From an uncultured Oscillospiraceae bacterium (GTDB lineage: Bacteria; Bacillota; Clostridia; UMGS1883), in contig CAYTWZ010000002.1 of NCBI GenBank assembly GCA_964442035.1, positions 2,211 through 31,173 on the forward strand: a DNA stretch of 28,963 nt, in the 5' to 3' direction. Positions 817-28,963 of this stretch are shown here, piece after piece. A program made the translations under genes and the position numbers. The notes under the pieces are model-generated. The model was not told where the DNA came from, did no database searches, and saw nothing but the letters and a program-made list of their open reading frames with translations. Numbering within the stretch: the stretch's first letter is position 1; each line of letters begins with the position of its first letter.

Positions 817-820
817 GGTA

Positions 821-2224: not shown

Positions 2225-2290
2225 TAAAGTAAGGGATTTTTGAATAATTTGCGCTTGCGGCTTAGAACAACTCTTGAGGTTATTTTACTT

Positions 2291-2331: not shown

Positions 2332-2367
2332 AATTATAGGGAAAATTATTCCGGGAGATGATAATTT

Positions 2368-3675: not shown

Positions 3676-3688
3676 AGTGAGGTACACT

Positions 3689-4518: not shown

Positions 4519-4577
4519 AAAACAGGAGAACATTCGGTGGGAGAAAGGCTTTGTATTTTTAAAAGGAGGTATTTGAC

Positions 4578-5339
4578 ATGGGTGACGATTTTACCCTCAG
4601 TGACAAGCAAATTCGTGAAAACCGAAATCGGGAGTACCGCAAAGATCCGCCGGAGCTTATCTTAGTCATAATATGCGTGGCCGCTGTAGTGACGGGTGTG
4701 TTTTTCCCGGGGGAAATGTATGATTCGGTGTTTGGTACCGAGCTTATACTCAGCAATCTCATCCGCGTGTTCTTGGCTGTACTTGGTTTTATATTCGGAG
4801 TGCGAATTATTGTTCCTAACCATAAGATCACTTATATTTTTGGCGGAATAGTGATTCTTGTGTCCGTCATACTGGCCTTTTCTGCTACGCCTGAGGCCAT
4901 GATTGCGTTTGCGATGGGCTTCGCGTCTATGATCGTATCTGCGGCAAGACCGTCGGTGCTTGTAATTACGGCAGCTGCTGTGATACTTGTGGAAATAATA
5001 AAGCGGCTGTATATTATATTCGGCCCCGGACAAAAGGCTTCCCGTGGGGGAAAGGTATTGACCCGTGTATCTGCAATCTTGGGCGGGCTTTCCATATTTA
5101 TTGCGCTGCTGATGCCTATGGTCGATCAGGAGTATCCCGGCATGGCAACGGTCGTGCTTTGGATAGTTGGGCTGATATGCGCCGCCGGCGGGTTTATTAC
5201 AGGAGTTGTTGTAAAGCAGCCGTCATATAATACCGGGGACTGGCTCCGGCTCATAGCTTCAGCGGTGGGTATGGGAATACTGCTTTCCTGTATTACTACA
5301 ATATTCGGCCTCCCCGTGCTCGACTTTATGAGGTGGTAA
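4578..5339 (+). CDS. Uncharacterised polytopic membrane protein (about 6-7 TM)
   Basis: RBS AAAGGAGGT lies 8 nt before the ATG. The protein is hydrophobic throughout and no recognisable family motif was found. Confidence 0.6.
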   Translation: MGDDFTLSDKQIRENRNREYRKDPPELILVIICVAAVVTGVFFPGEMYDSVFGTELILSNLIRVFLAVLGFIFGVRIIVPNHKITYIFGGIVILVSVILAFSATPEAMIAFAMGFASMIVSAARPSVLVITAAAVILVEIIKRLYIIFGPGQKASRGGKVLTRVSAILGGLSIFIALLMPMVDQEYPGMATVVLWIVGLICAAGGFITGVVVKQPSYNTGDWLRLIASAVGMGILLSCITTIFGLPVLDFMRW

Positions 5340-9951: not shown

Positions 9952-11475
9952 TTATTTTACCAGACTTTCGCCGGTCATTTCCTTGGGCTGTTCTATGCCC
10001 ATAAGCTTGAGCATGGTGGGCGTGATGTCCGCAAGTCTGCCGCCCTCGCGGAGTGAACCGCAGTCCGCGCCTACAACGATGAAGGGAACAGGATTGGTAG
10101 TGTGGGCTGTGAAGGGAGCCTTGGTCACAGGGTCGATTAGCTGATCCGCGTTGCCGTGATCGGCAGTGATGCACACTATGCCGCTTTTTTTGAGTACAGC
10201 CTCAGTGACCTGACCAACGCAGTCGTCAACAGCCTCAACGGCCTTGATGGTTGCGGGGATTATTCCGGTATGGCCTACCATATCGCAGTTGGCGAAATTG
10301 AGAATGATAACATCAAACTTGTCAGCTTCGATTTCCTTTATGACTGCATCCTTGACCTCGTAGGCGCTCATTTCGGGCTTAAGATCAAAGGTCGGTACAT
10401 CTGGAGACTGGATAAGAATTCTTTCTTCCCCGGGGAACTGTTTTTCCTCGCCGCCGTTGAAGAAGAAGGTAACGTGGGCATACTTTTGGGTCTCGGCAAT
10501 TCTAAGCTGAGTAAGACCAAGCTTGCTTACATACTCGCCGAATGTCATTGTAAGGGCTTCGGGAGGATAGGCAACTGTTACGTTAGGCATGGAGGCATCA
10601 TACTGAGCCATGCACACAAAGTTGACGGGGAAGAATCCGCGCCTGCGCTCAAAACCGTCAAAATCCGGATCCACAAAGGCGCGGGTAATCTGACGTGCCC
10701 GGTCAGGACGGAAGTTGAAGCAGATAACGCTGTCACCTTCACTGATCATTCCGTCGCTGTCAACCACAGTGGGAAGCATAAACTCGTCGGTAACGCCATT
10801 TTTATAGGAGTTTTTGATGGCCTGTACAGGGTCATTCTCGCTGACGCCCTCACCAAGCACCATTGCATCGTATGCCTTGACTACACGATCCCAGGCTTTA
10901 TCACGATCCATAGCGTAGTAACGGCCTGCTACAGTGGCTACCCTGCCAATACCGATCTCAAACATTTTTTCAACCAGCTGTGCCATATAGCCCGCTCCAG
11001 AGGTCGGAGGTGTGTCACGTCCGTCCAGAAAAGCGTGTACATATACTTTTTTGACCCCAAGCTTTTTAGCCATGTCGATAAGACCGTAAAGGTGCTCGTT
11101 GTGACTGTGAACGCCTCCGTCAGAGAGAAGTCCGAACAGGTGAAGAGCCTTTCCGCTGTCGGCAGCGGCCTTCATGTTAGCCTTAAGGACACTGTTGTCC
11201 AGTATAGCGCCGTCCTTGATGTCCTTTGAAATTTTCACCAGCATCTGATATACAATACGTCCGGCGCCGATGTTGGTGTGTCCAACCTCACTGTTGCCCA
11301 TTTGTCCGTCGGGAAGGCCTACATCAAGGCCGCTGGCGGAAATTATGGTGTTGGGGCAGGTTGCCATATATCTGTCAAGGTTAGGCTTTTGTGCGGCCAT
11401 TACGCAGTTGCCCTCTTCATTGGGGTTGATGCCGTAGCCGTCCATTATAAGCAGAGCAATAGGTTTTTTAGGCAT
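9952..11475 (-). CDS. gpmI: 2,3-bisphosphoglycerate-independent phosphoglycerate mutase
   Basis: MPKKPIALLIMDGYGINPNEEGN… matches the iPGM family along its full length. Confidence 0.9.
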   Translation of the reverse strand: MPKKPIALLIMDGYGINPNEEGNCVMAAQKPNLDRYMATCPNTIISASGLDVGLPDGQMGNSEVGHTNIGAGRIVYQMLVKISKDIKDGAILDNSVLKANMKAAADSGKALHLFGLLSDGGVHSHNEHLYGLIDMAKKLGVKKVYVHAFLDGRDTPPTSGAGYMAQLVEKMFEIGIGRVATVAGRYYAMDRDKAWDRVVKAYDAMVLGEGVSENDPVQAIKNSYKNGVTDEFMLPTVVDSDGMISEGDSVICFNFRPDRARQITRAFVDPDFDGFERRRGFFPVNFVCMAQYDASMPNVTVAYPPEALTMTFGEYVSKLGLTQLRIAETQKYAHVTFFFNGGEEKQFPGEERILIQSPDVPTFDLKPEMSAYEVKDAVIKEIEADKFDVIILNFANCDMVGHTGIIPATIKAVEAVDDCVGQVTEAVLKKSGIVCITADHGNADQLIDPVTKAPFTAHTTNPVPFIVVGADCGSLREGGRLADITPTMLKLMGIEQPKEMTGESLVK

Positions 11476-11512
11476 TGTTATTACCTCCGTATCAATAGTG
11501 TTAATAGAACCA

Positions 11513-11536
11513 AAGGGGCGCTAAACGCCCCTTTTA
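11513..11536. terminator. Intra-operon hairpin (aaaggggcg-ctaaa-cgccccttt) between tpiA and gpmI
   Basis: Perfect 9-bp GC-rich stem with A/T tracts on both sides. On the plus strand it is followed by TTATTATTTT. It could be a partial or attenuating terminator. Confidence 0.4.
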
Positions 11537-11550
11537 TTATTTTGTGAAAT

Positions 11551-12303
11551 TTACTTTGCGGCTTCTGTGATCTGTGCAAAGTCAGCGGATTTGAGGGAGG
11601 CTCCGCCGATAAGTCCGCCGTCAATGTTGGGTTTTGCAAGCAGTTCGGCAGCGTTTTTGGCGTTCATGCTTCCGCCGTACTGGATGGTGATTTCGGCGGC
11701 TGTGGCCTGATCGTACAGTCCCTCAAGCACCTTGCGAATAGCGCCGCAGACCTCCTCAGCCTGATCGGCAGTAGCGGTCTTGCCTGTACCTATGGCCCAG
11801 ATAGGCTCATAGGCTACTACTACCTTCTTGGCATCATCAGCGCTTACACCGGAAAACGCCTTCTTGATCTGTATTGTGATAAGATCCATAGTGATACCGA
11901 CTTCTCTCTGGCCAAGGCTTTCACCTACGCAGAGAATGGGTATAAGGCCCTTTTCCAGCGCTTTCTTTACCTTCAGGTTGACGGTTTCGTCTGTCTCGGC
12001 AAAGTACTGGCGGCGCTCACTGTGGCCTATAATAACGTACTTGACGCCAAGGTCAATGAGCATGTCGGCGCTTACCTCGCCGGTATATGCGCCCTTGTCC
12101 TCAAAGTGGAGGTTTTCCGCGCCGATCTCTACGTGAGTGCCTTCCGCACCCTTAACTGCTTCGGCAAGGTTGACAAAGGGGGTGCAGCAAACAACTGTGC
12201 AGCTTGCGCCCTTGGTGGCCTCGGCCACTTCCTTGACATAAGCGCAGGTTTCGGAGGGAAGCTTGTTCATCTTCCAGTTTCCCGCAATTATATATTTACC
12301 CAT
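11551..12303 (-). CDS. tpiA: Triosephosphate isomerase
   Basis: MGKYIIAGNWKMNK… and the AYEPIWAIGTGKTAT active-site loop. Confidence 0.95.
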   Translation of the reverse strand: MGKYIIAGNWKMNKLPSETCAYVKEVAEATKGASCTVVCCTPFVNLAEAVKGAEGTHVEIGAENLHFEDKGAYTGEVSADMLIDLGVKYVIIGHSERRQYFAETDETVNLKVKKALEKGLIPILCVGESLGQREVGITMDLITIQIKKAFSGVSADDAKKVVVAYEPIWAIGTGKTATADQAEEVCGAIRKVLEGLYDQATAAEITIQYGGSMNAKNAAELLAKPNIDGGLIGGASLKSADFAQITEAAK

Positions 12304-12324
12304 CTGAATTACTCCTTTTGCTGA

Positions 12325-13518
12325 TTACTTGTCATTGAGCGCCGCAATACCGGGAAGGTCCTTGCCCTCAAGGTACTCAAGGCTTGCACCGCCGCCTGTG
12401 GAAATATGGGTCATCTTGTCGCCAAGACCGGCCTGGTTTACAGCCGCAACGCTGTCACCGCCGCCGATAACTGTGGTAGCGCCCTCAAGTGCGGCAAGCA
12501 CCTGAGCGATAGCGTTTGTACCCTTTGCGAAGTTGGGCATTTCAAACACGCCCATTGGTCCGTTCCATACTACTGTCTTGGCGTCCTTAAGAACCTCTGT
12601 GAACAGCTCAACGGACTTGGGTCCGATGTCAAGTCCCTGCCAGCCGGCCTCGATGCCACCCTGAGGAACGACCTTGCTTTCGGTGTCGTTATCAAAATCC
12701 CTGCCCACAACCGTATCAACGGGAAGCACCAGCTTGTCGCCGGCCTTTTCCATCATCTTCTTGGCGTAGTCAACAAAATCAGCTTCAAGCAGGGAGTCGC
12801 CGACTTCCTCACCCATAGCCTTCATGAAAGTGTATGCCATGCCGCCGCCGATAATGAGCTTATCAACCTTGTCAAGCAGGTTCTCAATGACAGAGATCTT
12901 GCTGGAAACCTTACTGCCGCCAAGGATAGCTACCAAGGGACGTACAGGTGCGTTAACAGCGTTGCCAAGGTATTGGATCTCCTTCTGAATCAGGTAACCG
13001 GCAACAGCGGGCTGAAGATATTCCGTAACGCCAACGTTGGAGCAGTGTGCTCTGTGCGCTGTACCGAAAGCGTCGTTTACAAACATATCGGCAAGAGAAG
13101 CAAGCTCCTTGCTGAAGGCTTCAACATTCTTTGTTTCCTCAGCTCTGTAGCGGGTGTTTTCAAGGAGTACAACGTCTCCGTCCTGCATTTCAGCAACGGC
13201 TTTCTTCGCGTTTTCGCCTACAACATTGGCGTCAGCGGCAAATACAACAGGCTTGCCAAGCTTTTCACTGAGGCGCTCCGCCACAGGAGCAAGGGAAAGC
13301 TCGGGCTTAGGCTCGCCCTTGGGCTTGCCCAGATGAGAGCAAAGAATTACCTTTGCGCCGTTATTAATAAGATACTGGATAGTGGGAAGGGCAGCTACGA
13401 TTCTTGTCTCGTCTGTGATAGTGCCTTCCTTAAGGGGTACGTTAAAATCGCAACGTACAAGAACCCTTTTGCCCTTTACCTCAACATCCTCGATGGTCTT
13501 TTTGTTTGTCATGCTCAT
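12325..13518 (-). CDS. pgk: Phosphoglycerate kinase
   Basis: …[14 protein letters not shown]…[11 protein letters not shown]… are PGK signatures. ATG at 13518 follows GAGGTGA. The upstream GTG in the ORF track overlaps the RBS. Confidence 0.95.
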
Positions 13519-13599
13519 TTGAATCACCTCATAATTTATTTTTAAAAAATAACCAACAAATGTTATGGAACAATTTCCCGTGTCCCACTGTCACATATA

Positions 13600-13775: not shown

Positions 13776-16700
13776 TTATTTGCTTACTGACGTCAATGCG
13801 CATGAGGATGAGCCTGAGTACGTGCCGCCGGTCACTATTCCGTATGGCTCTTTCCCCGTGAAAGCGCCACCTGTTACGCTCCCTCCGTAATTTAATGTGT
13901 ATGAGCCGCTTTTGATTTCAGGTGTTGATATAAATACCCATGCGTATGCTTTTGACGGTACATATGTCACAATTTCATCCCCGCTTGAATTTGTTAGCTT
14001 GAACGCCTTACCCGCTGATTGTGATGAAAAGCCGCCTGAACCGCCCCACATACCGCTGCCGGAGGAACTTGACGAAGTCACAACGTAATACTGCTTCGCG
14101 CTGTCGGGAGTTATCGCCATATCGGATGAACCTGCGCCAATTACAGTACCTCCTGTAATTGAAAGTGTGTCGCCGTTGTTATCGCCTATGTCAAACACGC
14201 CGTTCCCGCCGCTTGTGGGGCCGTTTACAAGAAGCGTACCGCCCGAAATTAGAGCGCTGCCGTTGCTGTCAAAGCCATCGCCCTCTGCTTCGATATAGAC
14301 CAGTCCGCCGGATATTTCAACATATCCGTATGTCGACGAATCCTCACCGCCCCAGTTGGGACCGCTGTTCCAGCCTTGATTGCCGCCGTTCCAGCCTTGA
14401 TTGCCGCCCGGCCCCGCTAAAAGCTCAACTGACAAAGCGGAAACGGTATCAATGTCATATGCGCTGTCTGTCGGCTTGTCGCCTGCCGCGTTTACACCGT
14501 CGTCAGAGGAAACGATTCTTGTTTCACCGCCTAAAACATATATATTTGCGGCTTCTATGCCTTCATAGCTCTTTGTAATATTTATATCGGCGTTATCGCT
14601 TATATAAAGATAGCTGTCGCCGTGTATCCCATCGTCGCCTGTGGCGGCGGTTATGCTTCCGCCGATTATGCGCACAGTATGGTTTGAATGAACGGCGTCA
14701 TCATAGGTGTTTATATTGAAAGTGCCGCCACTGATATAAACAAGGTTGCCGCCCTTTACGCCCTTACAGCTGCTCGCCGCCTCGGGATTGTTTGCCGAAA
14801 CGGTCTGGGGCGCACCGCCGTATGCGGTCAAATCAAATGTGCCGCCGGAAATATTTGTTATGTTCTCGCTTTGTATACAATCCTGCTGGGAATTTACAGT
14901 GATATTGCCGTCTGTAACAACAACATTTCCGGTCCCGCACTGTATTCCGTCCTCGCTACAGGTTATGTCAAGAGTTCCTCCGTTGATATCAATTTCACCC
15001 TCTACATAGGCGAGAACCGTTGCTCCGTCTGTGTCGTATATTACCTCATTTACTTGAATTCCCTCCAAGGCTTTGGTGATCGTTATATTTGCGCCGCTAC
15101 CTATTGTAATGTTTTTTACCGCTTTGATTCCGTCCTCACCGGCCGACGCGACAATTGTGCCGCCTGTGATCGCCACACAGCCATCGCCCTCGGCAGGCGT
15201 GCCACTTGTTAACGTCGTGTCCTCAAGGTATGCAATGCTCGAAGCATTAGCCTTGATAGCTTCACCCGCGGCGTTGATCGTTATGTCGCCGCCAGTGATC
15301 GTGAGAAGAGTATCAGCTTGTATGCCGTCCCCGTTTGATACAGTGCCGTCCGTGCCTGTTGTTGTTTTTGAGGTTATATTTATTGTGCCGCCGTTTATCG
15401 TAACAGAACCGCCGGAAACGTATTCATTTGTCAGCGCGTCAATTTCAGGATCCTGATCGGACTTGATTCCGTCTCCTCCGGAAACAACCGTTATCGAATT
15501 GTTTTTCTTTGTGATTTTTACGGATTGGTCACCCTTTATGCCGTTGTTTGCGGCAGTAACATTTAAATCGCAGACGCCAATTTCGATGTCGTTCTTACAG
15601 CGTATGCCGTTCCCGTAATCGGATATTGCGTTAAGCGTTCCCTCACCCTTTATTGTAAGGTCATTCTTGCTGTAAATTGCTGTTGTATCCCCGTCCGATG
15701 AAGCTGATCTGAATGTGCTTTCGTTTTCTGTGGGAACAAGTGTTACCGTTCCCTTTAAACCGTCAAACGCGTTCCCCGTTGTGCTTGTTACGCTTACACC
15801 GTCAAGATTGACGGTGATTAAATCTGTCTTTTCGGAGGAATTAACTATTATCTGTCCATCGTTTAATGTGCCCTCAACGGTATATTCTCCCGCCGCCGTA
15901 ATTGTAACGGCAGTTCCAGATACGGTTACATTTTCAATGCCATCGGCATTCACGCTGTCACCCATAAGATGTATTATTCCGTCACCCGCGGAAATTACGG
16001 GATCCTGTGGAGATTCCTCCTCAGTCGCTTTGGTGGTGACGGTAACAGTGATATCGCCTGTTATCTTGGTTATTCTGTATGTATTTTCCCCAAGCTCGGA
16101 GGGCAGCTTTAGATTTTTGTAATTTGTTGACGGGGTCACTTCAACAGATTCGATCTCGTAGCCCTCATCCGCGGTAATCTTAAAATTCACCTGTCCGTTG
16201 CCGGAGGTATCGATTTCGCCGGTGTCGCCGCTTCGCGCGTATGCCTCTGTAACAAACTGCTCATCGCCTGTAAACACCTGCGTGTCAGACACGGCTATTG
16301 ATGCGTGGGAATCGGTCTCAAATGTCGCTTTAAAGCCCTCCGCTGTCGTTGCCTTGGTGGTGACGGTAACAGTGATATCGCCTGTTATCTTGGTTATTCT
16401 GTATGTATTTTCCCCAAGCTCGGAGGGCAGCTTTAGATTTTTGTAATTTGTTGACGGGGTCACTTCAACAGATTCGATCTCGTAGCCCTCATCCGCGGTA
16501 ATCTTAAAATTCACCTGTCCGTTGCCGGAGGTATCGATTTCGCCGGTGTCGCCGCTTCGCGCGTATGCCTCTGTAACAAACTGCTCATCGCCTGTAAACA
16601 CCTGCGTGTCAGACACGGCTATTGATGCGTGGGAATCGGTTTCAAATGTTGCTTTAAAGCCCTCCACAGGAACAAACACATCACTTAGCGGCTCAAGGGT

Positions 16701-17033
16701 CAGTACGCCGTTTTCTGTTTTCCAGAAAAAAGCTTTTAAAACATCGCCGTCATCTTTTAATGTGCTGTTAAAGACAAGCGACTTGTTGCCGGTTCCGTTT
16801 GTTTCTTCGGATACCACAATGCCCTTGAGCTGCCCTAAAGAGTCATATACCGCAACAATTCCTTTCCCGCTTTCGTCTGAGCCTTTGCTTACGACCATTG
16901 ATATATTTCCGTTCTCGTCAATATCCAATGAGGTAATTGAGCAGGCAAGCTCTGCCGCCTCCGCGGCAATTGAAAAAACCATCAGCGATAAAACGATGAT
17001 AAAACATAGAACCTTTGTGGAAATGGATCTCAC
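13776..17033 (-). CDS. Large secreted right-handed beta-helix repeat protein (Cthe_2159/DUF4353-like carbohydrate-binding family) with two identical 108-aa Ig-like modules
   Basis: Signal peptide MRSISTKVLCFIIVLSLMVFSIAAEA. Dozens of GDDGI/NGDGI/xDGIxx beta-helix turn motifs. A GWNGGNQGWNGGNQGWN low-complexity linker. An exact tandem 108-aa repeat (GFKATFETDSHASIAVSDTQ…TTKAT). Confidence 0.8.
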   Translation of the reverse strand: MRSISTKVLCFIIVLSLMVFSIAAEAAELACSITSLDIDENGNISMVVSKGSDESGKGIVAVYDSLGQLKGIVVSEETNGTGNKSLVFNSTLKDDGDVLKAFFWKTENGVLTLEPLSDVFVPVEGFKATFETDSHASIAVSDTQVFTGDEQFVTEAYARSGDTGEIDTSGNGQVNFKITADEGYEIESVEVTPSTNYKNLKLPSELGENTYRITKITGDITVTVTTKATTAEGFKATFETDSHASIAVSDTQVFTGDEQFVTEAYARSGDTGEIDTSGNGQVNFKITADEGYEIESVEVTPSTNYKNLKLPSELGENTYRITKITGDITVTVTTKATEEESPQDPVISAGDGIIHLMGDSVNADGIENVTVSGTAVTITAAGEYTVEGTLNDGQIIVNSSEKTDLITVNLDGVSVTSTTGNAFDGLKGTVTLVPTENESTFRSASSDGDTTAIYSKNDLTIKGEGTLNAISDYGNGIRCKNDIEIGVCDLNVTAANNGIKGDQSVKITKKNNSITVVSGGDGIKSDQDPEIDALTNEYVSGGSVTINGGTINITSKTTTGTDGTVSNGDGIQADTLLTITGGDITINAAGEAIKANASSIAYLEDTTLTSGTPAEGDGCVAITGGTIVASAGEDGIKAVKNITIGSGANITITKALEGIQVNEVIYDTDGATVLAYVEGEIDINGGTLDITCSEDGIQCGTGNVVVTDGNITVNSQQDCIQSENITNISGGTFDLTAYGGAPQTVSANNPEAASSCKGVKGGNLVYISGGTFNINTYDDAVHSNHTVRIIGGSITAATGDDGIHGDSYLYISDNADINITKSYEGIEAANIYVLGGETRIVSSDDGVNAAGDKPTDSAYDIDTVSALSVELLAGPGGNQGWNGGNQGWNSGPNWGGEDSSTYGYVEISGGLVYIEAEGDGFDSNGSALISGGTLLVNGPTSGGNGVFDIGDNNGDTLSITGGTVIGAGSSDMAITPDSAKQYYVVTSSSSSGSGMWGGSGGFSSQSAGKAFKLTNSSGDEIVTYVPSKAYAWVFISTPEIKSGSYTLNYGGSVTGGAFTGKEPYGIVTGGTYSGSSSCALTSVSK
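16026..16673. repeat. Exact tandem duplication, 2 x 324 bp, inside the beta-helix protein gene
   Basis: Two consecutive identical 324-nt units, also visible as identical antisense ORFs at 16198.. and 16522... They encode two identical 108-aa modules. Confidence 0.85.
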
Positions 17034-21990: not shown

Positions 21991-21994
21991 ACGC

Positions 21995-22025
21995 AAAAAT
22001 CCGGGACAATAAGCCCCGGATTTTT
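21995..22025. terminator. Bidirectional rho-independent terminator between potD and the convergent minus-strand gene
   Basis: aaaaatccggg-acaataagc-cccggattttt, with T/A tracts on both sides. Confidence 0.65.
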
Positions 22026-22054
22026 GTGGGTCAGGGACTTTTACTTGGAGCCAT

Positions 22055-24451
22055 TCAATCCTCCAATATCTCGTCCACACACATATCCGCCAGCTCACGG
22101 GCGTATTCTTCACAGTACCCTTGGCTGGTTATATTTATGGAAGAGAAACCCTCCGATGGAGTCAGCAGTACCCAGCCCTTGTCAAAGCTCAGTTTTATAC
22201 CGTCGGTCAGATCCATAGGCTGGCTTTGATGACGGCTGTATATTTTGTTCATAGCTTGGGAGGTTTCGGCGCAGTCTACACCGGTGTGTATCATGTGGGT
22301 CTCGGGCAGACGGGCAAGAAGCTCGGACAATGAAGCGTTTTCGCTTTTCATAAAGTCAATCAGCTTGATCAGCGCGCCCACCGCATCAAAGGCGTAGATA
22401 AACTGGTCATACAGCATGGGGTCATCGGATTTGGTCAGCTCGCGCATAAGCTCCGGCGGAGAATTACGGGTGCGTACCACTACAGCACCGTATTTTTCAG
22501 CCAAAAGCTCAACTCCCGAAGGCGCTGATATCGGAACGTAGATTTTGGCGCCCCTGTGGGTATGCATTACAATCATAGCGGACAGAAGAGTGTATATATC
22601 ACGGCTGATTATTCTCCCGCTAATATCGATGAGGGTCAGTTCCTGACAGGACGGGTCGATAACAGCTCCCAGATCCGCGCCTTCTTCCTTTACGGCCTGG
22701 GCGATCTCATGAGGGCCTTTGTCAGAGGTCTCCACATGGCAGTTGAGATCATTGCCGGCGCTTTTCAGCAGACGCTTTGCCCAGTCGGAGCTGCCTCCTA
22801 CCAGCAACTTGTAGCCGAGGCTTTGCTTTTTAGTGGAGTTGATAAGGTTTTTGAGATAAAACAGCTTGTATTCAAAAAGGTACTCCGCATCCTTAATGTT
22901 TTCGCTGCTCCCCCGGGAAAAGTCCTCCAGTCGAAAGCTGCTTTTAAGCCTGTTCATCAGCTCGGACTGCGGGTCTGCACCGTTGGGACCTATGAGCTTG
23001 ATTTCTCCGTAGTCAGCTCCTCCCCGGGTATATACGTTTACCGCCGCACCGCCCCACAGCCGATGAAAGCGGACTCCGCTTCGGCTTACTGGAAGAGGCT
23101 GTTCCCCAAAGTCAAAGATTTTTGCTCCTGTGGAGAGCACTCCGCCGATGAAGGCGGATTTCAGCATTGCCGCCGCCGGTGAGCCGCTGTCGGATACGCC
23201 TACGCCGCAGCCATCCGCTGCTGTGCCAAAGGCTGCACCAAGGAGGGTCATTGTTTCGGGAGTTATTTCGCTGCCAAGCTCTCCCTGTACTCCGGCAGAG
23301 CTCCATATCCGTCCTCCCCCTACGCTACCCCATATAAGGTTGGAATGCTGCACGGTATCCGGAGGAAGCTCCTTATGTGGCCATATACGGACACCGGGCT
23401 TTACGGCACAGTTTTCACCTACCACGCTGCCGCTGCCTATCACTGCCTGCTCGTATACGGCGCTCCCGCGTTTAAGGACAGCTTCGCGGTCTATTACCGC
23501 ACCTCTAAGCTGAGCGTTTTCCTCCAGTCTGCATCCGTCAAGGGCAATGCCCCGCTTGATGCCGGATCCGGCACAGAGAGTGACCCCGCGGCCTATTACG
23601 CTGTAGGGCTCTACTCTGGAACCACGTAGGATACGGCTGCGCCCTCCGATAAATGCCGGCGGGCGCAGTACGGCTCCCTGCTGTATTTCGGCCCCGCTTT
23701 CAACCCAGATGCCCTCACTGTATTCCTCCGGCATGTTCAGCGCGGTTTTCCGATCAAGTATATCCCCGTGACAGCGGCGGTAGTCCCCAAGGCTCCCGAT
23801 GTTGCACCAGTATCCGCCGTGGGGCATACCGTATATACCGCGTTTGTCATTAAGCAAAACCGGAAATATGTCTCGTATCAGGTCAGTAAAAATTCCCTCG
23901 GGTATCAGTGTCAGCAGCTTAGGCGAGAGCACTCCCACTCCGCAGCTTATATATGAGGATGCAACAAGCCCCCAGTCCGTACTTTCGAACAGCCTGTTTA
24001 TCCGTCCTCCTTCTCCGATGGTCATTGTCGCCCGGTGAGGATATGGGGAGGCGGGTGCCAGCGCAATGGAGGCCAATGCTTTGCGGCTTTTGTGGAAACG
24101 AATAAGAGACGTAATGTCCATGTCCGTTATCACCGAGCCGCTCATTGCAACAAAGTCCCCATCTACAAAGTCCCAGGCGTTTTTTAACGCTCCGGCAGTA
24201 CCCAAGGGTGTATCTTCATTAAAATACGTCAGTCTAACTCCTAAGGCCGTACCGTCACCGAAAAATTCGCGTATTTTGCCTGCCATGTACCCTTCTGTTA
24301 CGGCAATTTCAGTTATGGCGTGCTTCTTCAGTAGCTTTATACAGTGCTCCATTATGGGCGCACCCATAATATTGAGCATAGGCTTTGGCCTGTCACAGGT
24401 GAGCGGCCTAAGCCGCGTGCCCTCGCCGCCGGCCAGAATTATAGCTTTCAC
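22055..24451 (-). CDS. Multidomain sugar-1-phosphate nucleotidylyltransferase (GlmU/ManC-like NTP-transferase plus left-handed beta-helix) fused to a C-terminal phosphoglucomutase/phosphomannomutase-like domain
   Basis: GTG start after GGGGG. N-terminal MKAIILAGGEGTRLRPLT nucleotidyltransferase motif, then hexapeptide-repeat region, then a PGM/PMM-like C-terminal half. In that half TASHNP reads TRGGAD and DGDGDR reads DPSCQE. Confidence 0.8.
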   Translation of the reverse strand: MKAIILAGGEGTRLRPLTCDRPKPMLNIMGAPIMEHCIKLLKKHAITEIAVTEGYMAGKIREFFGDGTALGVRLTYFNEDTPLGTAGALKNAWDFVDGDFVAMSGSVITDMDITSLIRFHKSRKALASIALAPASPYPHRATMTIGEGGRINRLFESTDWGLVASSYISCGVGVLSPKLLTLIPEGIFTDLIRDIFPVLLNDKRGIYGMPHGGYWCNIGSLGDYRRCHGDILDRKTALNMPEEYSEGIWVESGAEIQQGAVLRPPAFIGGRSRILRGSRVEPYSVIGRGVTLCAGSGIKRGIALDGCRLEENAQLRGAVIDREAVLKRGSAVYEQAVIGSGSVVGENCAVKPGVRIWPHKELPPDTVQHSNLIWGSVGGGRIWSSAGVQGELGSEITPETMTLLGAAFGTAADGCGVGVSDSGSPAAAMLKSAFIGGVLSTGAKIFDFGEQPLPVSRSGVRFHRLWGGAAVNVYTRGGADYGEIKLIGPNGADPQSELMNRLKSSFRLEDFSRGSSENIKDAEYLFEYKLFYLKNLINSTKKQSLGYKLLVGGSSDWAKRLLKSAGNDLNCHVETSDKGPHEIAQAVKEEGADLGAVIDPSCQELTLIDISGRIISRDIYTLLSAMIVMHTHRGAKIYVPISAPSGVELLAEKYGAVVVRTRNSPPELMRELTKSDDPMLYDQFIYAFDAVGALIKLIDFMKSENASLSELLARLPETHMIHTGVDCAETSQAMNKIYSRHQSQPMDLTDGIKLSFDKGWVLLTPSEGFSSINITSQGYCEEYARELADMCVDEILED

Positions 24452-24482
24452 CGTTGTTTCCCCCTTTTGTTTTCAGAAAACG

Positions 24483-24506
24483 CTGATTGATTCTAAAATG
24501 CTGATT
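24483..24506 (-). promoter_or_regulatory. AATCAG-box element, copy S2 (minus strand: aatcagcattttagaatcaatcag)
   Basis: Lies ~30-55 nt upstream of the GTG start of the nucleotidyltransferase gene. It is followed by the palindrome GTTTTCTGAAAAC. Confidence 0.35.
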
Positions 24507-24603
24507 GGCGGGAAAATTTTTCTCGCAGTAAGGCAAAAAGCGCATGATTACTTGCTGTATTATGGGCTTCTTTAACCGAACTGCGGGGGAAATAACCGTC
24601 AAG

Positions 24604-24650
24604 CAGCGTTTTAAGCCGTAGACGTGAATTAATCAGAGCTTCCTTGATAT
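24604..24650 (+). promoter_or_regulatory. AATCAG-box related element, copy S3 (cagcgtttta…gaattaatcagagcttccttgatat)
   Basis: Shares the gaattaatcagRgcttcctt arm and the cagcgtttta segment with S1. It sits in a 400-bp divergent intergenic region. Confidence 0.3.
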
Positions 24651-24795
24651 TATTTGCCGGGAGAAAAATCTTATTCCAGGAAAACTACGGATCCATACAT
24701 TTGATATAGTTCGGTTCCATCCATGCGATTTTTGCTTTAACTTTTTTGCCCGCAATCAAAAATACAAATAATACAAAAAAAATTACAAGATTGTT

Positions 24796-24852: not shown

Positions 24853-25395
24853 ATGTATGTGCTTCCCGGAACAAATATTGAAGTAGGGGAGCTGTCCTTT
24901 GACAGCGTTAATTCGCTGCTGAATTCAATTTTTCTCACAGGAGGACTGGTGCTTAGTCAGGTGGCAGGAATGACTGACTGTGCTCCACATGTGGTGCAGA
25001 ATTGGGTCAAAAGAGGGTTTGTTTCGCCGCCGGTGAACAAGAAATACAGCAAGCGGCAGTTTTGCAGAATAGCCTTTATCAACTTTTTGAAGGATGTGAT
25101 GCAGATCGACAAGGTCACGGCGCTGATGGAATATATTAATGGGGCGCTGGATGATGAAAGCGATGATCTGGTGGATGACTGTACGCTGTACTGCTACTTT
25201 GCTCAGGTAATAGGACAGCTGACGGACTTCCGCCGGGACACCATAGAGTCTGTGGTGGAAAAGTCGGTCTCCGGAGGAGGAGACAGCTATATCCAAGTCA
25301 GGCTCAAGGCCACACTTATAGTTATGGCCACCTCTTACGGAGCGGCAATGCTTCGAAGCAGGGTCAATTTGCTTATAAGTCAGTTGGATATATAA
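24853..25395 (+). CDS. DUF1836-like protein with N-terminal MerR-type HTH
   Basis: LSQVAGMTDCAPHVVQNWVKRGFVSPP resembles the MerR HTH. The overall pattern matches the Firmicutes DUF1836 family (assignment tentative). Confidence 0.6.
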   Translation: MYVLPGTNIEVGELSFDSVNSLLNSIFLTGGLVLSQVAGMTDCAPHVVQNWVKRGFVSPPVNKKYSKRQFCRIAFINFLKDVMQIDKVTALMEYINGALDDESDDLVDDCTLYCYFAQVIGQLTDFRRDTIESVVEKSVSGGGDSYIQVRLKATLIVMATSYGAAMLRSRVNLLISQLDI

Positions 25396-25502
25396 CTAAA
25401 CGAAAGATGTTCCCGACTATATGGGCGGTGAGCGACCCTTTCGTTTTTCGGTGGGATATCAATCTCGAAACGTTGAAAGAGGGCTTTCAGCCCTTATTGG
25501 AA
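25391..25502 (+). promoter_or_regulatory. Conserved structured leader element, copy B (between the HTH gene and nfeD)
   Basis: Same 5' (TATAACTAAACGAAAGATGT) and 3' (GGGCTTTCAGCCCTTATTG) ends as copy A, with the same P1 stem. The internal hairpins are variable and covarying. It overlaps the stop codon of the upstream gene. Confidence 0.45.
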
Positions 25503-25523
25503 AAAAAGGGGGTCAAGGGGATA

Positions 25524-26162
25524 ATGTTCATTGTGAATTGGTGGAATGCCATGACAGCGGCTCAGCACGGGTTTTTGTATGTAGCGGTTCCGGCTACTTT
25601 AGTACTGGTCATTCAGACACTGTTGCTGATGTTTGGCATAGGCGACAGTGACGGTGATGTGCCGGACGGGGATATTCCCGATGTGGATGTTGGCGATGGA
25701 AATTTTCAGGCGGTGGAGGATTTCTCCAACTGCGATGTTTCCGGTGACTTGGACGGTGATCTGAGGATATTTACGGTCAGGGGTATGGTTGCGTTTTTCT
25801 CGGTGTTTGGCTGGTCAGGCGCGGCAATACTCGGAGGCGGACTTCCGCTGTGGTTTTCCGTTGTGGGGGCTGTAGTGGCGGGAGCTGCCGCAATGCTGGC
25901 GGTGGCGTTTATCGTCAAGTTTGCCCTTAATCTTCAGCAGTCGGGCAATATCAATCCCCGCAATGCCGTGGGTAAGTCCGGAACGGTTTATATAACTGTT
26001 CCTCCGGCTCGAAGCGGCAGCGGAAAGGTCAATCTTGTGCTTCAGGAGCGCTACTCCGAAATGGAAGCTGTTACCGATGGAGAACAGCCAATTTCGCCCG
26101 GTCGTGAAGTAACTGTAGTTGGAACTACAACAATGGGAACACTTATAGTTAGGGAAAAGTAA
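25524..26162 (+). CDS. NfeD-like membrane protein (YuaF family) with C-terminal OB-fold
   Basis: ATG at 25524 follows AAGGGGG. Two to three TM helices and a C-terminal beta-rich domain (…GKSGTVYITVPPARSGSGKVNLVLQERYSEMEAV…VTVVGTTTMGTLIV). The upstream in-frame extension to 25407 is non-coding by comparison with copy A. Confidence 0.7.
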   Translation: MFIVNWWNAMTAAQHGFLYVAVPATLVLVIQTLLLMFGIGDSDGDVPDGDIPDVDVGDGNFQAVEDFSNCDVSGDLDGDLRIFTVRGMVAFFSVFGWSGAAILGGGLPLWFSVVGAVVAGAAAMLAVAFIVKFALNLQQSGNINPRNAVGKSGTVYITVPPARSGSGKVNLVLQERYSEMEAVTDGEQPISPGREVTVVGTTTMGTLIVREK

Positions 26163-27561: not shown

Positions 27562-27631
27562 AGCTGTAACCTAAGGAAACGCTGAATAATTTACGCCTAC
27601 GGTTTAAAACAAACCTTGGCGATTAATTCAC

Positions 27632-27661
27632 CGGCAGCTCGGTTAAAAAGCCGAGCTGCCG
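27632..27661 (+). terminator. GC-rich hairpin downstream of floT (probable terminator)
   Basis: cggcagctcgg-ttaaaaag-ccgagctgccg, an 11-bp perfect stem. No U-tract follows. Confidence 0.4.
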
Positions 27662-27709
27662 CAAGTATTCATGTGCCTTTTGCCTTGCCTCGAAAAAATA
27701 TTCTTTGCC

Positions 27710-27736
27710 AATCAGCATTTTAAAATTAAACAACGC
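27710..27736 (+). promoter_or_regulatory. AATCAG-box related element, copy S4 (aatcagcattttaaaattaaacaacgc), immediately upstream of a -35 hexamer
   Basis: Matches S2 at ~20 of 26 positions. It lies ~12 nt upstream of the TTGACA of the LRR-protein promoter. Confidence 0.35.
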
Positions 27737-27748
27737 TTCATTTAATAT

Positions 27749-27863: not shown

Positions 27864-28963
27864 ATGAGCAAAGGAAAGCTTTTGCCGATACTGATGAGTC
27901 TGACAATGTTGGGCTCATCGGTCAGTATCCCCGTTTCCGCGGCGGAATACACCGACAATCAGATAGCGGACACGGTAGCCCGTGTAGCTGTGACGGAGAT
28001 TTTTGCCACGGATGTGAGCGAACCCTCTGAGGATGAATTTATTGCTCCTGCCGAAGATGTAGAAGAGAACGAGGCGGAAAAAGCGTCACAGGAGGATGCT
28101 TATGTCATGACAGACAGCGATGTTAAACTGTTCGCGGATTCATTGACATATGAAAACCTGCAATACGAAGTAAATGACGGCAATATTACAATAGTGGGCT
28201 GCAATGACGGTGTGGAAAGTATTGATATTCCCGCAACTATCGATGGGGAAGCAGTTACGAGTATTTCCGCTTACGCTTTCAGCGGACATTCAGATTTAAA
28301 AAAGCTCACCATACCGGAGGGAGTGACATATCTCGGGGCTTACTTTTTGACGGGAACAGCCGTAGAGAGGCTGACCATCCCCTCCACAGTGACGGAATCC
28401 GGGGGCAGCATCAACGGCGCGTTGGCCGGTTCCGCGGTTACAGAGCTGACCTTTGCGCCGGGCACGGTAAAAATTCCGAATAACATTTGCCGCAGCGATT
28501 CGCAGGGCAGTCTGCTTGAGATAGTCAATTTGCCGGACGGAGTGGAGACTATCGGAGATTGTGCTTTTACAAACGCCAAGAGCCTGACAAGGTGTGACCT
28601 CCCGGAGTCCGTTGTTACGATAGGAAATAACGCTTTTCAGAACTGCGTCAGTCTGGACGGCGAGATAAATATTCCCGCCAGTGTAAAAACTATCGGAGAT
28701 TACGCATTTGATGGCTGCAAAAGTATTACAAGCGTAAAAACCAACCTGAACACAAGCTCCGAGTGGGTAGGGACGGATAAAGTTTCCTTTTCAGCAACAA
28801 TTGGAAAGATGGCTTTCCGGAACTGCACTTCAATGAACGGTTTTGAGCTTGCCGCCAGCGTGAAAACGCTGAATAACTATGCGTTCGAGGGCTGCTCATC
28901 CCTGAGCGAGCTCACCATACCGGAGGGAGTGACATATCTCGGGGCTTACTTTTTGACGGGAAC
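27864..28963 (+). CDS. BspA-type leucine-rich-repeat cell-surface protein (5' partial; continues beyond the window)
   Basis: RBS GAAAGAAGG, then ATG at 27864. Signal peptide MSKGKLLPILMSLTMLGSSVSIPVSAA. Repeated LRR_5-type units (…IPEGVTYLGAYFL…, …LPDGVETIGDCAFTNAKSL…, …IPASVKTIGDYAFDGCKSI…). Open to the window end. Confidence 0.7.
   Translation, partial: MSKGKLLPILMSLTMLGSSVSIPVSAAEYTDNQIADTVARVAVTEIFATDVSEPSEDEFIAPAEDVEENEAEKASQEDAYVMTDSDVKLFADSLTYENLQYEVNDGNITIVGCNDGVESIDIPATIDGEAVTSISAYAFSGHSDLKKLTIPEGVTYLGAYFLTGTAVERLTIPSTVTESGGSINGALAGSAVTELTFAPGTVKIPNNICRSDSQGSLLEIVNLPDGVETIGDCAFTNAKSLTRCDLPESVVTIGNNAFQNCVSLDGEINIPASVKTIGDYAFDGCKSITSVKTNLNTSSEWVGTDKVSFSATIGKMAFRNCTSMNGFELAASVKTLNNYAFEGCSSLSELTIPEGVTYLGAYFLTG
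28305..28963. repeat. Internal direct repeat in the LRR gene: 53 nt or more identical at 28305-28357 and 28911-28963, 606-nt period
   Basis: ctcaccataccggagggagtgacatatctcggggcttactttttgacgggaac occurs twice. The second copy is truncated by the window edge. Confidence 0.8.

What the first reader, a model, noticed from the sequence alone, without database searches (positions are those of the whole stretch)
22055..24451. PGM/PMM-like domain with degenerate catalytic motifs in a large nucleotidyltransferase fusion protein
The C-terminal half aligns to the four-domain alpha-D-phosphohexomutase fold. At the position of the phosphoserine loop (GxxTASHNP) the protein reads …VNVYTRGGADYGEIKL…, so Ser becomes Gly and His becomes Gly. 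At the metal-binding loop (DGDGDR) it reads …VIDPSCQELTLIDISGR…. Loss of both the phospho-Ser and the Asp metal triad is expected to abolish mutase activity. The domain may therefore act as a sugar-phosphate-binding regulatory or scaffold module attached to an active N-terminal sugar-1-phosphate nucleotidylyltransferase, which retains GGEGTRLRPLT. An AATCAG-box lies in its leader.
Basis: inference. Interest (0 to 1): 0.5.

Follow-up and report, generated by a model that had tools for sequence, protein, structure and literature searches.

The report
Doubly inactivated sugar-nucleotide enzyme fusion
This 798-residue gut-Clostridia protein looks like a fusion of two sugar-activating enzymes, but both halves have lost their catalytic residues while staying under selection, so it is probably a non-catalytic binding or regulatory protein and not the "bifunctional enzyme" that databases call it.

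Summary
ORF 22055-24451 (-) encodes NTase + left-handed beta-helix (LbH) + a complete four-domain phosphohexomutase fold (Foldseek TM 0.80-0.82 to 9du5/1wqa). All four mutase signature loops are degenerate: TASHNP->NVYTRGG, DGDADR->DPSCQE, the GGEENGG sugar loop is deleted, and RASGTEP->TPSEGFS.

Two things change the interpretation. First, this is a family trait. 298 fused homologues from Bacillota, Actinomycetota (SCO1388-type), Chloroflexota and others all lack a Ser-His dyad and the phosphate-binding loop. Second, the N-terminal NTase is probably not active here. The G-loop and Lys23 are kept, but the residues matching VTC1's critical Asp111, Asp219 and Lys196, the EKP lysine and the mannose-binding Asn173 read Ser106, Asn217, Arg193, Ser157 and Ser169.

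These losses are shared by a clade and recur independently in at least one other. dN/dS is 0.1-0.36 across the protein. Compared with intact relatives, constraint has moved from the NTase to the LbH and mutase-like parts.

Best reading: a double pseudoenzyme that acts as a nucleotide(-sugar)-binding regulator or scaffold, like GMPPA or GlgD. Its partner and ligand are unknown. The "AATCAG-box" is the end of a dispersed intergenic repeat.

The parts
22055..24451 (-). Complete ORF, 798 aa plus stop (TGA). Member of the NTase-LbH-phosphohexomutase-like fusion family.
   Evidence: The identical protein is found in a Logan assembly of SRR10165008.
23747..24451 (-). N-terminal sugar-1-phosphate nucleotidylyltransferase-fold domain (aa 1-235). 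Its active site is degenerate.
   Evidence: PF00483 E 3.6e-33. Best solved matches are 8x7s (tlr0611), GMPPB and VTC1. Catalytic-position table.
24398..24430 (-). Retained G-loop GGEGTRLRPLT (aa 8-18). With Lys23 (24383-24385) it forms the GXGXRXnK NTP-binding signature.
   Evidence: Signature defined in PMC5982138. VTC1 Gly9/Thr12/Arg13/Lys23 bind PPi.
24134..24142 (-). SGS (aa 104-106). Ser106 replaces the metal-binding Asp of the SGD/NSD motif (VTC1 Asp111).
   Evidence: Alignments. 104/118 homologues have Asp and 14 (the subclade) have Ser or Gly. Role of the Asp.
23975..23989 (-). FESTD (aa 155-159). Ser157 replaces the lysine of the F(V)EKP motif.
   Evidence: Motif role in PMC5982138.
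23936..23950 (-). ISCGV (aa 168-172). Ser169 replaces the hexose-binding Asn of the NTG/NAG motif (VTC1 Asn173).
23795..23809 (-). WCNIG (aa 215-219). Asn217 replaces the second metal-binding Asp (VTC1 Asp219). This change is unique to this sequence among 118 homologues.
23327..23734 (-). Left-handed beta-helix domain (aa ~240-375), GMPPB_C/eIF2B-epsilon type. It is the likely oligomerisation module.
   Evidence: PF25084, PF00132, PF24894. Repeated short strands in the model. It is the most conserved region within the subclade (70% identity).
22058..23311 (-). Four-domain alpha-D-phosphohexomutase-fold module (aa 381-798) with all signature loops degenerate.
23018..23038 (-). NVYTRGG (aa 472-478), the remnant of the phosphoserine loop TASHNP. 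Thr475 or Tyr474 sits at the Ser position and there is no His.
22640..22657 (-). DPSCQE (aa 599-604), the remnant of the metal-binding loop DGDADR. Only the first Asp is kept.
22418..22435 (-). TKSDDP (aa 673-678), the site where the sugar-binding loop (GGEENGG in 1wqa) is deleted.
   Evidence: Gap in all four HMMER alignments..
22142..22162 (-). TPSEGFS (aa 764-770), the remnant of the phosphate-binding loop RASGTEP.
24459..24466 (-). Shine-Dalgarno AAGGGGGA, 8 nt upstream of the GTG start.
21994..22026 (-). Intrinsic-terminator-like hairpin plus T-run, 29 nt after the stop codon. The gene appears monocistronic.
24470..24660 (-). Copy of a dispersed intergenic repeat that forms most of the leader and contains the two CAATCAGC 'boxes'.

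Best explanation
The gene encodes a full-length, selection-maintained member of a widespread family found in Bacillota, Actinomycetota, Chloroflexota, Dormibacterota and Eremiobacterota. The family architecture is a nucleotidylyltransferase (NTase), a left-handed beta-helix (LbH) and a phosphohexomutase-fold module.

Shown:
- The mutase-fold module is structurally complete, but it lacks the Ser-His phosphoserine dyad, the Asp triad, the sugar loop and the phosphate loop. No fused family member examined has a functional set of these loops. The module is therefore a non-catalytic descendant of an archaeal-type PGM/PMM.
- In this protein's lineage, the NTase has also lost the residues that chelate Mg2+ and hold the sugar-1-phosphate. 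It keeps the NTP/NDP-binding G-loop, Lys23, the LGTAGA loop and the base-contacting Glu79.

Inferred: the protein no longer makes a nucleotide-sugar. It still binds a nucleotide or nucleotide-sugar (probably a guanine or uridine one), oligomerises through its LbH, and acts as a non-catalytic sensor, regulator or scaffold. This is how GMPPA, KONJAC, GlgD and eIF2B gamma/epsilon work relative to their active NTase relatives. The constrained LbH and mutase-fold parts would carry the protein-protein function. Neither the partner nor the ligand has been identified.
For: Fold and homology.

Mutase loops: HMMER alignments to four solved mutases. MAFFT with 1wqa as explicit reference over 298 fused proteins found no Ser-His dyad. 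Arg419->Leu, Ser421->Asp and Thr423->Glu/Asp predominate in every lineage group outside the query subclade (Streptomyces has Ala at 423). Asp247->Glu is nearly universal but Gln in the query subclade. Only P0221 keeps DGDADR.

NTase residues: Ser106, Ser157, Ser169, Arg193 and Asn217 stand against family Asp, Lys, Asn, Lys and Asp. Their roles are stated in PMC9168903, PMC5982138 and PMC5474683.

Not decay: dN/dS is 0.10-0.36 in every region, and the ORF is intact in 16 subclade members at 55-100% identity.

Shift of constraint at matched 63% overall identity: NTase 76%, LbH 54%, mutase-like 58% in intact members, against 54%, 70% and 65% in the subclade.

Recurrence: a tree built only from C-domain columns shows the subclade plus P0121/124/125/127 as one NTase-degenerate clade. 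P0148-P0223 form a second, independent clade next to the intact P0142. The full-length protein therefore persists without NTase catalysis at least twice.

Genetics in a relative: sco1388 knockouts, alone or combined with either manC paralogue, show no phenotype.

Precedent for inactive modulatory NTase paralogues in Firmicutes: GlgD.
Against: No biochemical data exist for any family member, so inactivity is inferred from motifs only.

GlmU-type enzymes use Asn at the second metal position (my own knowledge), so Asn217 alone is not disabling. One subclade member (P0016) still has Asp106 and Asp217.

A new chemistry using other residues cannot be excluded.

No partner is identified. The neighbourhood is housekeeping or unrelated and is not conserved: pot ABC transporter, DUF1836, flotillin, ribosomal genes.

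Whether the same genome carries an NTase-intact paralogue could not be tested. Ligand binding is inferred only from retained motifs. AF2 pTM is 0.56, so the inter-domain arrangement is uncertain.
Confidence: 0.6

Rival explanations
1. One reading: an active sugar-1-phosphate nucleotidylyltransferase carrying a non-catalytic mutase-fold regulatory or scaffold module.
For: The G-loop, Lys23, LGTAGA and Glu156 are retained. This is the state of most of the family. In 12 of 80 loci a glycogen-synthase-like GT4/GT5 gene lies within four genes of an intact member; in 11 it is immediately upstream on the same strand, and in L023 it is fused to a GH57 branching enzyme. That implies real NDP-glucose production there. 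Asn can serve as a metal ligand in GlmU-type enzymes (my own knowledge).
Against: In this protein four to five catalytic or substrate positions are replaced together: Ser106, Ser157, Ser169, Asn217 and Arg193. The NTase domain has become the least conserved region in the subclade, the reverse of intact members. Sister lineages have gone on to lose the G-loop itself.
Confidence: 0.22
2. The database annotation (KEGG K16881-type, as given by JGI): a genuine bifunctional mannose-1-phosphate guanylyltransferase / phosphomannomutase.
For: Domain architecture. Source names. Howlett et al. assumed this for SCO1388 from its domains.
Against: All four mutase signature loops are absent here. No fused member has a Ser-His dyad or an R-x-S-G-T-E-P loop. 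NCBIfam mutase and NTase models are far below cut-off (134/439 and 204/440 bits). sco1388 mutants have no GDP-mannose phenotype.
Confidence: 0.02
3. A mutase with a non-canonical nucleophile: Thr475 (or Tyr474) is phosphorylated and the domain still transfers phosphate.
For: Thr or Ser occupies this position in most subclade members (T/S in P0001, 4, 7, 8, 10, 16 and L001). Asp599 (first metal Asp) is retained.
Against: The position is Arg in P0013 and varies across the family (E, Q, R, V...). There is no adjacent His, two of the three metal Asp are lost (Ser601, Gln603), the sugar loop is deleted and the phosphate loop is lost.
Confidence: 0.03
4. A decaying pseudogene or an assembly/sequencing artefact.
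For: Many catalytic residues are lost. Asn217 is unique to this sequence. The NCBI and Logan copies may derive from the same reads.
Against: The 798-codon frame is uninterrupted, with a good SD and terminator. dN/dS is 0.1-0.36 against three orthologues in every domain. The same substitutions occur in 15 orthologues at 55-68% identity from different samples. The AF2 model is confident.
Confidence: 0.02

Closest known systems
Archaeal-type alpha-D-phosphohexomutases (P. horikoshii PMM/PGM 1wqa, T. kodakarensis PGM 9du5, S. tokodaii 2f7l, T. kodakarensis phosphopentomutase 9ix8)
   Same: End-to-end sequence homology (E ~1e-29 to 1e-18) and the same four-domain fold (TM 0.78-0.82).
   Different: The Ser-His-Asn-Pro loop, two of the three metal Asp, the sugar loop and the phosphate loop are all missing. 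The module is fused behind an NTase-LbH instead of standing alone.
GMPPB / VTC1 / ManC (Rv3264c-type) and CugP (tlr0611, 8x7s) nucleotidylyltransferases with a C-terminal LbH
   Same: Fold, G-loop GXGXRXnK, LGTAGA loop and LbH tail. These are the best solved matches for aa 1-365.
   Different: Both metal-binding Asp, the EKP lysine and the hexose-binding Asn are replaced. There are an extra ~420 C-terminal residues.
Non-catalytic NTase paralogues: GMPPA, KONJAC1/2, GlgD, eIF2B gamma/epsilon
   Same: An NTase + LbH fold kept under selection without catalysis. GMPPA binds GDP-mannose and regulates GMPPB (abstract of PMC11228364). KJC1/2 up-regulate VTC1. GlgD modulates GlgC. GMPPA, KJC2 and eIF2B chains are among the structural or sequence hits.
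   Different: Those proteins have a known active partner, and none is identified here. None of them carries a mutase-fold module. Here the G-loop is intact and the metal and phosphate residues are lost. From memory, GMPPA's defect is an insertion in the G-loop.
SCO1388 and the K16881-annotated fusion family
   Same: Same architecture and length, with full-length homology at 30-41% identity. The Streptomyces loci have a CDP-alcohol phosphatidyltransferase gene upstream, consistent with K08744-K16881 synteny.
   Different: Those members keep an intact NTase active site (GGRKDKN.D signature). The window protein's clade does not. I equate the Streptomyces loci with SCO1388 from the paper's domain description, not from a sequence comparison.
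GlmM as a protein-binding regulator of the c-di-AMP cyclase CdaA (7ojs appears among the hits; its role is from my own knowledge)
   Same: A phosphohexomutase fold used as a protein-protein regulator.
   Different: GlmM is still an active enzyme. No cyclase link is seen here. This is an analogy only.

Membership tests
alpha-D-phosphohexomutase superfamily (PGM/PMM/GlmM) | Four-domain alpha/beta fold (domains I-IV) | tested here: met
   AF2 model with pLDDT 90.4. Foldseek to 9du5/1wqa: TM 0.80-0.82 over ~457 columns.
alpha-D-phosphohexomutase superfamily (PGM/PMM/GlmM) | Phosphoserine loop T/S-A-S-H-N-P with catalytic Ser followed by His | tested here: not met
   The loop reads NVYTRGG. Thr475 or Tyr474 sits at the Ser position and there is no His. 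No in-register SH[NL]P in 298 fused homologues.
alpha-D-phosphohexomutase superfamily (PGM/PMM/GlmM) | Metal-binding loop D-x-D-x-D-R | tested here: not met
   The loop reads DPSCQE; only the first Asp is kept.
alpha-D-phosphohexomutase superfamily (PGM/PMM/GlmM) | Sugar-binding loop in domain III (GGEENGG / GEESGH type) | tested here: not met
   Deleted: an 8-residue gap in all four HMMER alignments.
alpha-D-phosphohexomutase superfamily (PGM/PMM/GlmM) | Phosphate-binding loop R-x-S-G-T-E-P in domain IV | tested here: not met
   The loop reads TPSEGFS. The rest of the family has L-P-D-x-E-x-P.
alpha-D-phosphohexomutase superfamily (PGM/PMM/GlmM) | Curated profile thresholds (Pfam PF02878/79/80, PF00408; NCBIfam GlmM/PGM equivalogs) | tested here: inconclusive
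   PF02878 passes (31.6 vs 22.5 bits). PF02879 is sub-threshold and PF02880/PF00408 are absent. TIGR03990 scores 134 vs 439 bits.
Sugar-1-phosphate nucleotidylyltransferases (PF00483; GMPPB/ManC/CugP type) | NTase fold and Pfam threshold | tested here: met
   PF00483 scores 115.6 bits vs 21.2. Structural matches to 8x7s, 7x8k and 7d74.
Sugar-1-phosphate nucleotidylyltransferases (PF00483; GMPPB/ManC/CugP type) | GXGXRXnK signature (G-loop + Lys) | tested here: met
   G9, G11, R13 and K23 are present. Motif as defined in PMC5982138.
Sugar-1-phosphate nucleotidylyltransferases (PF00483; GMPPB/ManC/CugP type) | Two metal-binding Asp (VTC1 Asp111/Asp219; E. coli AGPase Asp142/Asp276) | tested here: not met
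   Ser106 and Asn217. Roles.
Sugar-1-phosphate nucleotidylyltransferases (PF00483; GMPPB/ManC/CugP type) | F(V)EKP lysine and the second phosphate-contacting Lys (VTC1 Glu195-Lys196) | tested here: not met
   FESTD, so Lys->Ser157. Ile192-Arg193 replaces Ser/Glu-Lys.
Sugar-1-phosphate nucleotidylyltransferases (PF00483; GMPPB/ManC/CugP type) | Measured pyrophosphorylase activity | not testable with these tools
NTase-LbH-phosphohexomutase-like fusion family (K16881-annotated; SCO1388-type) | Full-length homology with the same three-part architecture, ~780-835 aa | tested here: met
   The top 120 homologues are almost all ~780-860 aa with ~100% coverage; two are fragments. 78 proteins extracted from the 80 GTDB loci. 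The exhaustive C-domain search returns mostly ~800-aa fusions.
NTase-LbH-phosphohexomutase-like fusion family (K16881-annotated; SCO1388-type) | Intact NTase catalytic signature (G9 G11 R13 K23 D106 K157 N169 K/R193 D217) | tested here: not met
   The query reads GGRKSSSRN against the family's GGRKDKNKD. It belongs to a derived NTase-degenerate clade.
Non-catalytic regulatory NTase paralogues (GMPPA/KJC/GlgD-like): 'works like', not homology-defined | Loss of catalytic residues while the nucleotide-binding loop is kept under purifying selection | tested here: met
Non-catalytic regulatory NTase paralogues (GMPPA/KJC/GlgD-like): 'works like', not homology-defined | A catalytically active partner subunit in the same genome and hetero-oligomer formation | not testable with these tools

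The most novel reading that the evidence does not exclude
The NTase-LbH-mutase-fold family has a conserved core function that needs neither enzymatic activity. One candidate is a nucleotide-sugar-sensing regulator or scaffold of alpha-glucan or envelope-polysaccharide synthesis. NTase catalysis would then be an accessory that has been dispensed with independently in at least two Clostridial lineages. On this reading the window protein is a wholly non-catalytic 'fossil' of two enzymes, kept for binding and assembly, and the K16881 'bifunctional ManC/ManB' annotation is wrong for thousands of genomes.
Probability: 0.3. Interest if true: 0.65.

Novelty: new variant of a known kind. Interest (0 to 1): 0.48.

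Why it matters
First, annotation. A family found in many Bacillota, Actinomycetota and Chloroflexota genomes is propagated as a bifunctional mannose-1-phosphate guanylyltransferase/phosphomannomutase. The mutase half cannot work as such, so metabolic reconstructions that rely on it for Man-6-P <-> Man-1-P conversion are wrong. It also offers an explanation for why sco1388 knockouts had no GDP-mannose phenotype.

Second, pseudoenzyme biology. This is a natural series: active NTase with a dead mutase fold, then a dead NTase with its G-loop kept, then a dead NTase with the G-loop lost. The full-length protein is kept under selection at every stage. That makes it a good system for asking what a phosphohexomutase fold does when it is not an enzyme.

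Third, the link of intact members to GT4/GT5 and GH57 genes suggests an unrecognised NDP-glucose supply route for alpha-glucan synthesis in some anaerobes.

None of this is established biochemically.

Tried and rejected
- Hexamer 'AATCAG-box' as a regulatory motif: it is not enriched (18 vs 15.9 expected). It is reinterpreted as part of a repeat element.
- Rfam scan of the whole window for a leader riboswitch or RNA: no hit at gathering thresholds.
- Literature searches for K16881, SCO1388, 'phosphohexomutase pseudoenzyme' and domain-fusion terms: only Howlett 2018 is relevant, and there is no biochemical characterisation.
- Conserved operon context for the query clade: none. The neighbours differ between P0001, P0008, P0013, P0121 and P0148 and are mostly housekeeping genes. 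Only the divergent DUF1836-membrane-flotillin trio is shared with P0008, a close relative.
- Organism names for the NTase-degenerate clades: the cluster look-up returned no names, and all are uncultured. The nearest named records are an Oscillospiraceae MAG (P0008) and a rabbit-gut Clostridia MAG (L001).
- Co-occurrence of an NTase-intact paralogue in the same genome: could not be tested.
- 'Family-wide uniformly dead' was too simple, and I revised it. Most lineages keep Asp243 and a Glu at the third Asp position. 16 of 24 non-Streptomyces Actinomycetota also keep the second Asp. One protein (P0221) keeps DGDADR. The Ser-His dyad and the phosphate loop are nevertheless absent everywhere.
- A promoter for the gene on the minus strand: no good sigma-70 consensus match in the leader.


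Full report
**1. What is in the sequence**

The finding's coordinates are exactly one ORF, 22055-24451 on the minus strand, 798 aa. It starts at a GTG 8 nt downstream of AAGGGGGA. A terminator-like hairpin follows at 21994-22026. The gene lies convergent with a potD-like binding-protein gene and divergent from a DUF1836/MerR-like gene that has a perfect sigma-70 consensus promoter.

Pfam finds NTP_transferase (aa 2-232, E 3.6e-33), LbH/hexapeptide models (aa 247-349) and PGM_PMM_I (aa 385-511, 31.6 bits against a 22.5-bit threshold). PGM_PMM_II is sub-threshold, and PF02880 and PF00408 are not found. NCBIfam places aa 381-794 on archaeal GlmM (TIGR03990) at E 7.9e-39, but with 134 bits against a 439-bit cut-off. 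It places aa 2-281 on a mannose-1-phosphate guanylyltransferase model with 204 of 440 bits.

**2. The mutase-like half**

phmmer against PDB sequences aligns aa ~380-793 end to end with T. kodakarensis PGM (9du5), P. horikoshii PMM/PGM (1wqa), a phosphopentomutase (9ix8) and S. tokodaii PMM/PGM (2f7l). An AlphaFold2 model built on a 71-sequence alignment has mean pLDDT 90.4. Foldseek superposes its C-terminal half on the whole four-domain fold, with target-normalised TM 0.80-0.82. The fold claim is confirmed.

Residue by residue, and from MAFFT with 1wqa as explicit reference:

| Loop | 1wqa | Query |
|---|---|---|
| Phosphoserine | T-A-S101-H-N-P | N-V-Y-T-R-G-G |
| Metal | D243-G-D245-A-D247-R | D-P-S-C-Q-E |
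| Sugar | G-G-E-E-N-G-G | deleted |
| Phosphate | R419-A-S-G-T-E-P | T-P-S-E-G-F-S |

Three HMMER alignments and the ungapped Y-x-G-x-K anchor give Ser->Thr475 and His->Arg476. One HMMER alignment and MAFFT give Ser->Tyr474. Either way there is no Ser-His dyad. The Thr/Ser is not conserved: it is Arg in P0013 and varies elsewhere.

**3. This is a family trait**

A word-indexed search found 1844 homologues. The top 120 are almost all ~780-860 aa with the same architecture; two are fragments. They come from Oscillospiraceae, Acetivibrionales, Ruminiclostridium, Petroclostridium and Pseudoclostridium, and some sources name them 'mannose-1-phosphate guanylyltransferase/phosphomannomutase'.

A scan of GTDB species genomes extended the architecture to Streptomyces, Acidimicrobiia, Gaiellales, Chloroflexota, Dormibacterota and Eremiobacterota.

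An exhaustive HMMER search with the C-domain alone returned 2243 hits. The strongest are mostly ~800-aa fusions.

Across 298 fused-length proteins:
- None has an in-register SH[NL]P, and none has R-x-S-G-T-E.
- Only one (P0221) keeps DGDADR.
- Against the 1wqa reference, Arg419->Leu, Ser421->Asp and Thr423->Glu/Asp predominate in every lineage group outside the query subclade, which is a charge reversal at the phosphate site. Streptomyces has Ala at position 423.
- Asp247->Glu is near-universal. Asp243 is usually kept. Asp245 survives mainly in non-Streptomyces Actinomycetota, in 16 of 24.
- Actinobacterial members keep a GGDGxGGF-like sugar loop, and Clostridial members delete it.

The module is therefore an ancient, graded pseudo-mutase, and the window protein's clade is among the most degenerate (D-P-S-C-Q-E).

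**4. The N-terminal half is not intact here**

In one search, the alignments to tlr0611 (8x7s), GMPPB (7d72_K) and VTC1 (8yre_D) all place query Ser106 on the Asp of the GD/SD motif. The two that extend through the second metal motif, 8x7s and 7d72_K, place Asn217 on the Asp of W-x-D-I-G. The 7d72_K and 8yre_D alignments map the remaining positions (the 8x7s alignment is not informative at the EKP motif):
- Ser157 lies on the Lys of F(V)EKP.
- Ser169 lies on the Asn of N-x-G.
- Ile192-Arg193 lie on VTC1 Glu195-Lys196 (8yre_D only).

The VTC1 structure paper calls Asp111, Asp219 and Glu195-Lys196 'catalytically critical', and it shows Asn173 bonding the mannose (PMC9168903). Howlett et al. name GXGXRXnK and F(V)EKP as the signature motifs (PMC5982138). 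In E. coli ADP-Glc PPase the metal is chelated by the 'critical residues' Asp142 and Asp276 (PMC5474683).

Among 118 close full-length homologues, 104 have Asp at position 106, 113 have Asp at 217, and 101 keep Asp106, Lys157, Asn169 and Asp217 together. The exceptions are the query's own subclade (>=55% identity), which has Ser or Gly at 106 and no Lys at 157. Asn217 is unique to the query. The G-loop, Lys23, LGTAGA and Glu79 are kept.

**5. Evolutionary pattern**

A neighbour-joining tree built only from C-domain columns avoids circularity. It places the query subclade (P0001, L001, P0008, P0013, P0016) as sister to P0121/124/125/127, which have additionally lost parts of the G-loop and Lys23. 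A second, separate clade (P0148, P0149, P0152, P0153, P0171, P0191, P0223) has a fully degenerate NTase and sits next to the intact P0142. P0227 is a third case.

Within the subclade, Nei-Gojobori dN/dS is 0.10-0.36 in the NTase, LbH and mutase-like regions. dS is near saturation, so these values are rough, but the direction is clear.

Mean identity per domain, for pairs at matched overall divergence of 63% identity:

| Group | NTase | LbH | Mutase-like |
|---|---|---|---|
| NTase-intact pairs (n=1398) | 76% | 54% | 58% |
| Subclade pairs (n=85) | 54% | 70% | 65% |

Constraint has shifted away from the NTase and onto the other two parts.

**6. Context and function hints**

The query clade has no conserved sugar operon.

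For NTase-intact members, 12 of 80 loci carry a GT4/GT5 starch-synthase-like glycosyltransferase within four genes. These are Desulfotomaculia-like Bacillota and one Chloroflexota locus. In 11 of them it is immediately upstream on the same strand, and in L023 it is fused to a GH57 branching enzyme. That suggests NDP-glucose supply for alpha-glucan synthesis in those lineages. It also fits the fact that the closest solved NTase is a UTP-glucose-1-phosphate uridylyltransferase.

Streptomyces loci have a CDP-alcohol phosphatidyltransferase upstream, which matches the K08744-K16881 synteny.

sco1388 mutants have no phenotype, alone or combined with either manC paralogue. The authors had assumed bifunctionality from the domain layout alone.

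**7. Interpretation**

Shown:
- The fold.
- Degeneracy of all four mutase loops.
- Replacement of four to five NTase active-site residues.
- Purifying selection.
- Recurrence of NTase degeneration.

Inferred:
- Catalytic inactivity of both halves.
- Retained nucleotide or NDP-sugar binding.
- A regulatory or scaffold role analogous to GMPPA, KJC1/2, GlgD and eIF2B gamma/epsilon (hits).

The partner, the ligand and the oligomeric state are unknown. Whether an intact paralogue co-occurs in the same genome could not be tested.

My estimates are about 0.9 that the mutase module is non-catalytic, about 0.7 that the NTase is inactive in this protein, and about 0.4 for the specific regulator/sensor model.

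**8. Novelty and score**

The superfamilies, the fusion and the idea of dead NTase paralogues are all known. I could not find the following in the searchable literature:
- recognition that the mutase half of this widely annotated 'bifunctional' family is a pseudoenzyme;
- the fact that some lineages, including this one, have lost NTase catalysis too while keeping the whole protein.

I rate it a new variant of a known kind, of moderate interest (0.48).

Noticed in passing
window 24470-24660 (-), 27565-27745 (+), 2215-2340 (+): A dispersed intergenic repeat of ~170-190 nt. The two long copies are 77% identical over 169 nt, and a third copy is shorter with an internal deletion. The leader copy folds with z = -3.8 against shuffles. 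There is no Rfam match, and it is absent from the related loci fetched, so it may be a MITE/REP-like element or a small-RNA family. The octamer CAATCAGC occurs 8 times against 1.15 expected.
   Followed up: partly
L010-L013, L015, L018, L020, L022, L023, L037, L040, L062 (gene -1 relative to the family gene in 11 of the 12): NTase-intact family members lie next to a GT4/GT5 starch-synthase-like glycosyltransferase, which is immediately upstream on the same strand in 11 of these 12 loci. In Phosphitispora sp. TUW77 (L023) it is fused to a GH57 branching enzyme with a BE_C domain. This suggests an unrecognised alpha-glucan synthesis cluster that uses this NTase.
   Followed up: partly
proteins P0130, P0133, P0141, P0156, P0198, P0199, P0201, P0261: Proteins of ~400-440 aa that begin at the boundary of the mutase-like domain and lack all mutase motifs. 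They may be stand-alone versions of the pseudo-mutase module, or they may be fragments or mis-called starts.
   Followed up: no
protein P0221: The only fused member found that keeps an intact DGDADR metal loop, although it has no phosphoserine dyad. It looks like a relic of the ancestral active mutase.
   Followed up: no
window 16024-16647: A 300-nt tandem duplication at 99% identity (spacing 324) inside the 1085-aa ORF 13776-17033 (-), which carries three Cthe_2159 carbohydrate-binding-domain stretches. This is recent repeat expansion in a probable surface protein.
   Followed up: no
window 4409-4521 vs 25391-25507: Short near-identical stretches (24 nt at 96%, 27 nt at 89%) link the CpsB-downstream region (ORF 4578-5339, no Pfam hit) with the junction between the DUF1836 gene and the membrane-protein gene (25407-26162). 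The two membrane proteins may be paralogues with conserved 5' regions.
   Followed up: no
window 28303-28357 and 28909-28963: An exact 55-nt direct repeat, 606 nt apart, at the right edge of the window. The window ends inside the second copy.
   Followed up: no
L082 7618-8367 (-), near P0013's gene: In the genome of subclade member P0013, a short (249 aa) NTP_transferase gene lies two genes away from the degenerate fusion gene. It could be an active partner, but it is not seen near the window gene.
   Followed up: no
window 776-5339 and 9952-13527: The window also carries a capsule/EPS module: a GtrA-EamA fusion, a Wzz/tyrosine-kinase-like gene and a CpsB phosphatase. It also carries a glycolytic block (iPGM, TPI, PGK). 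Neither is adjacent to the gene under study.
   Followed up: partly
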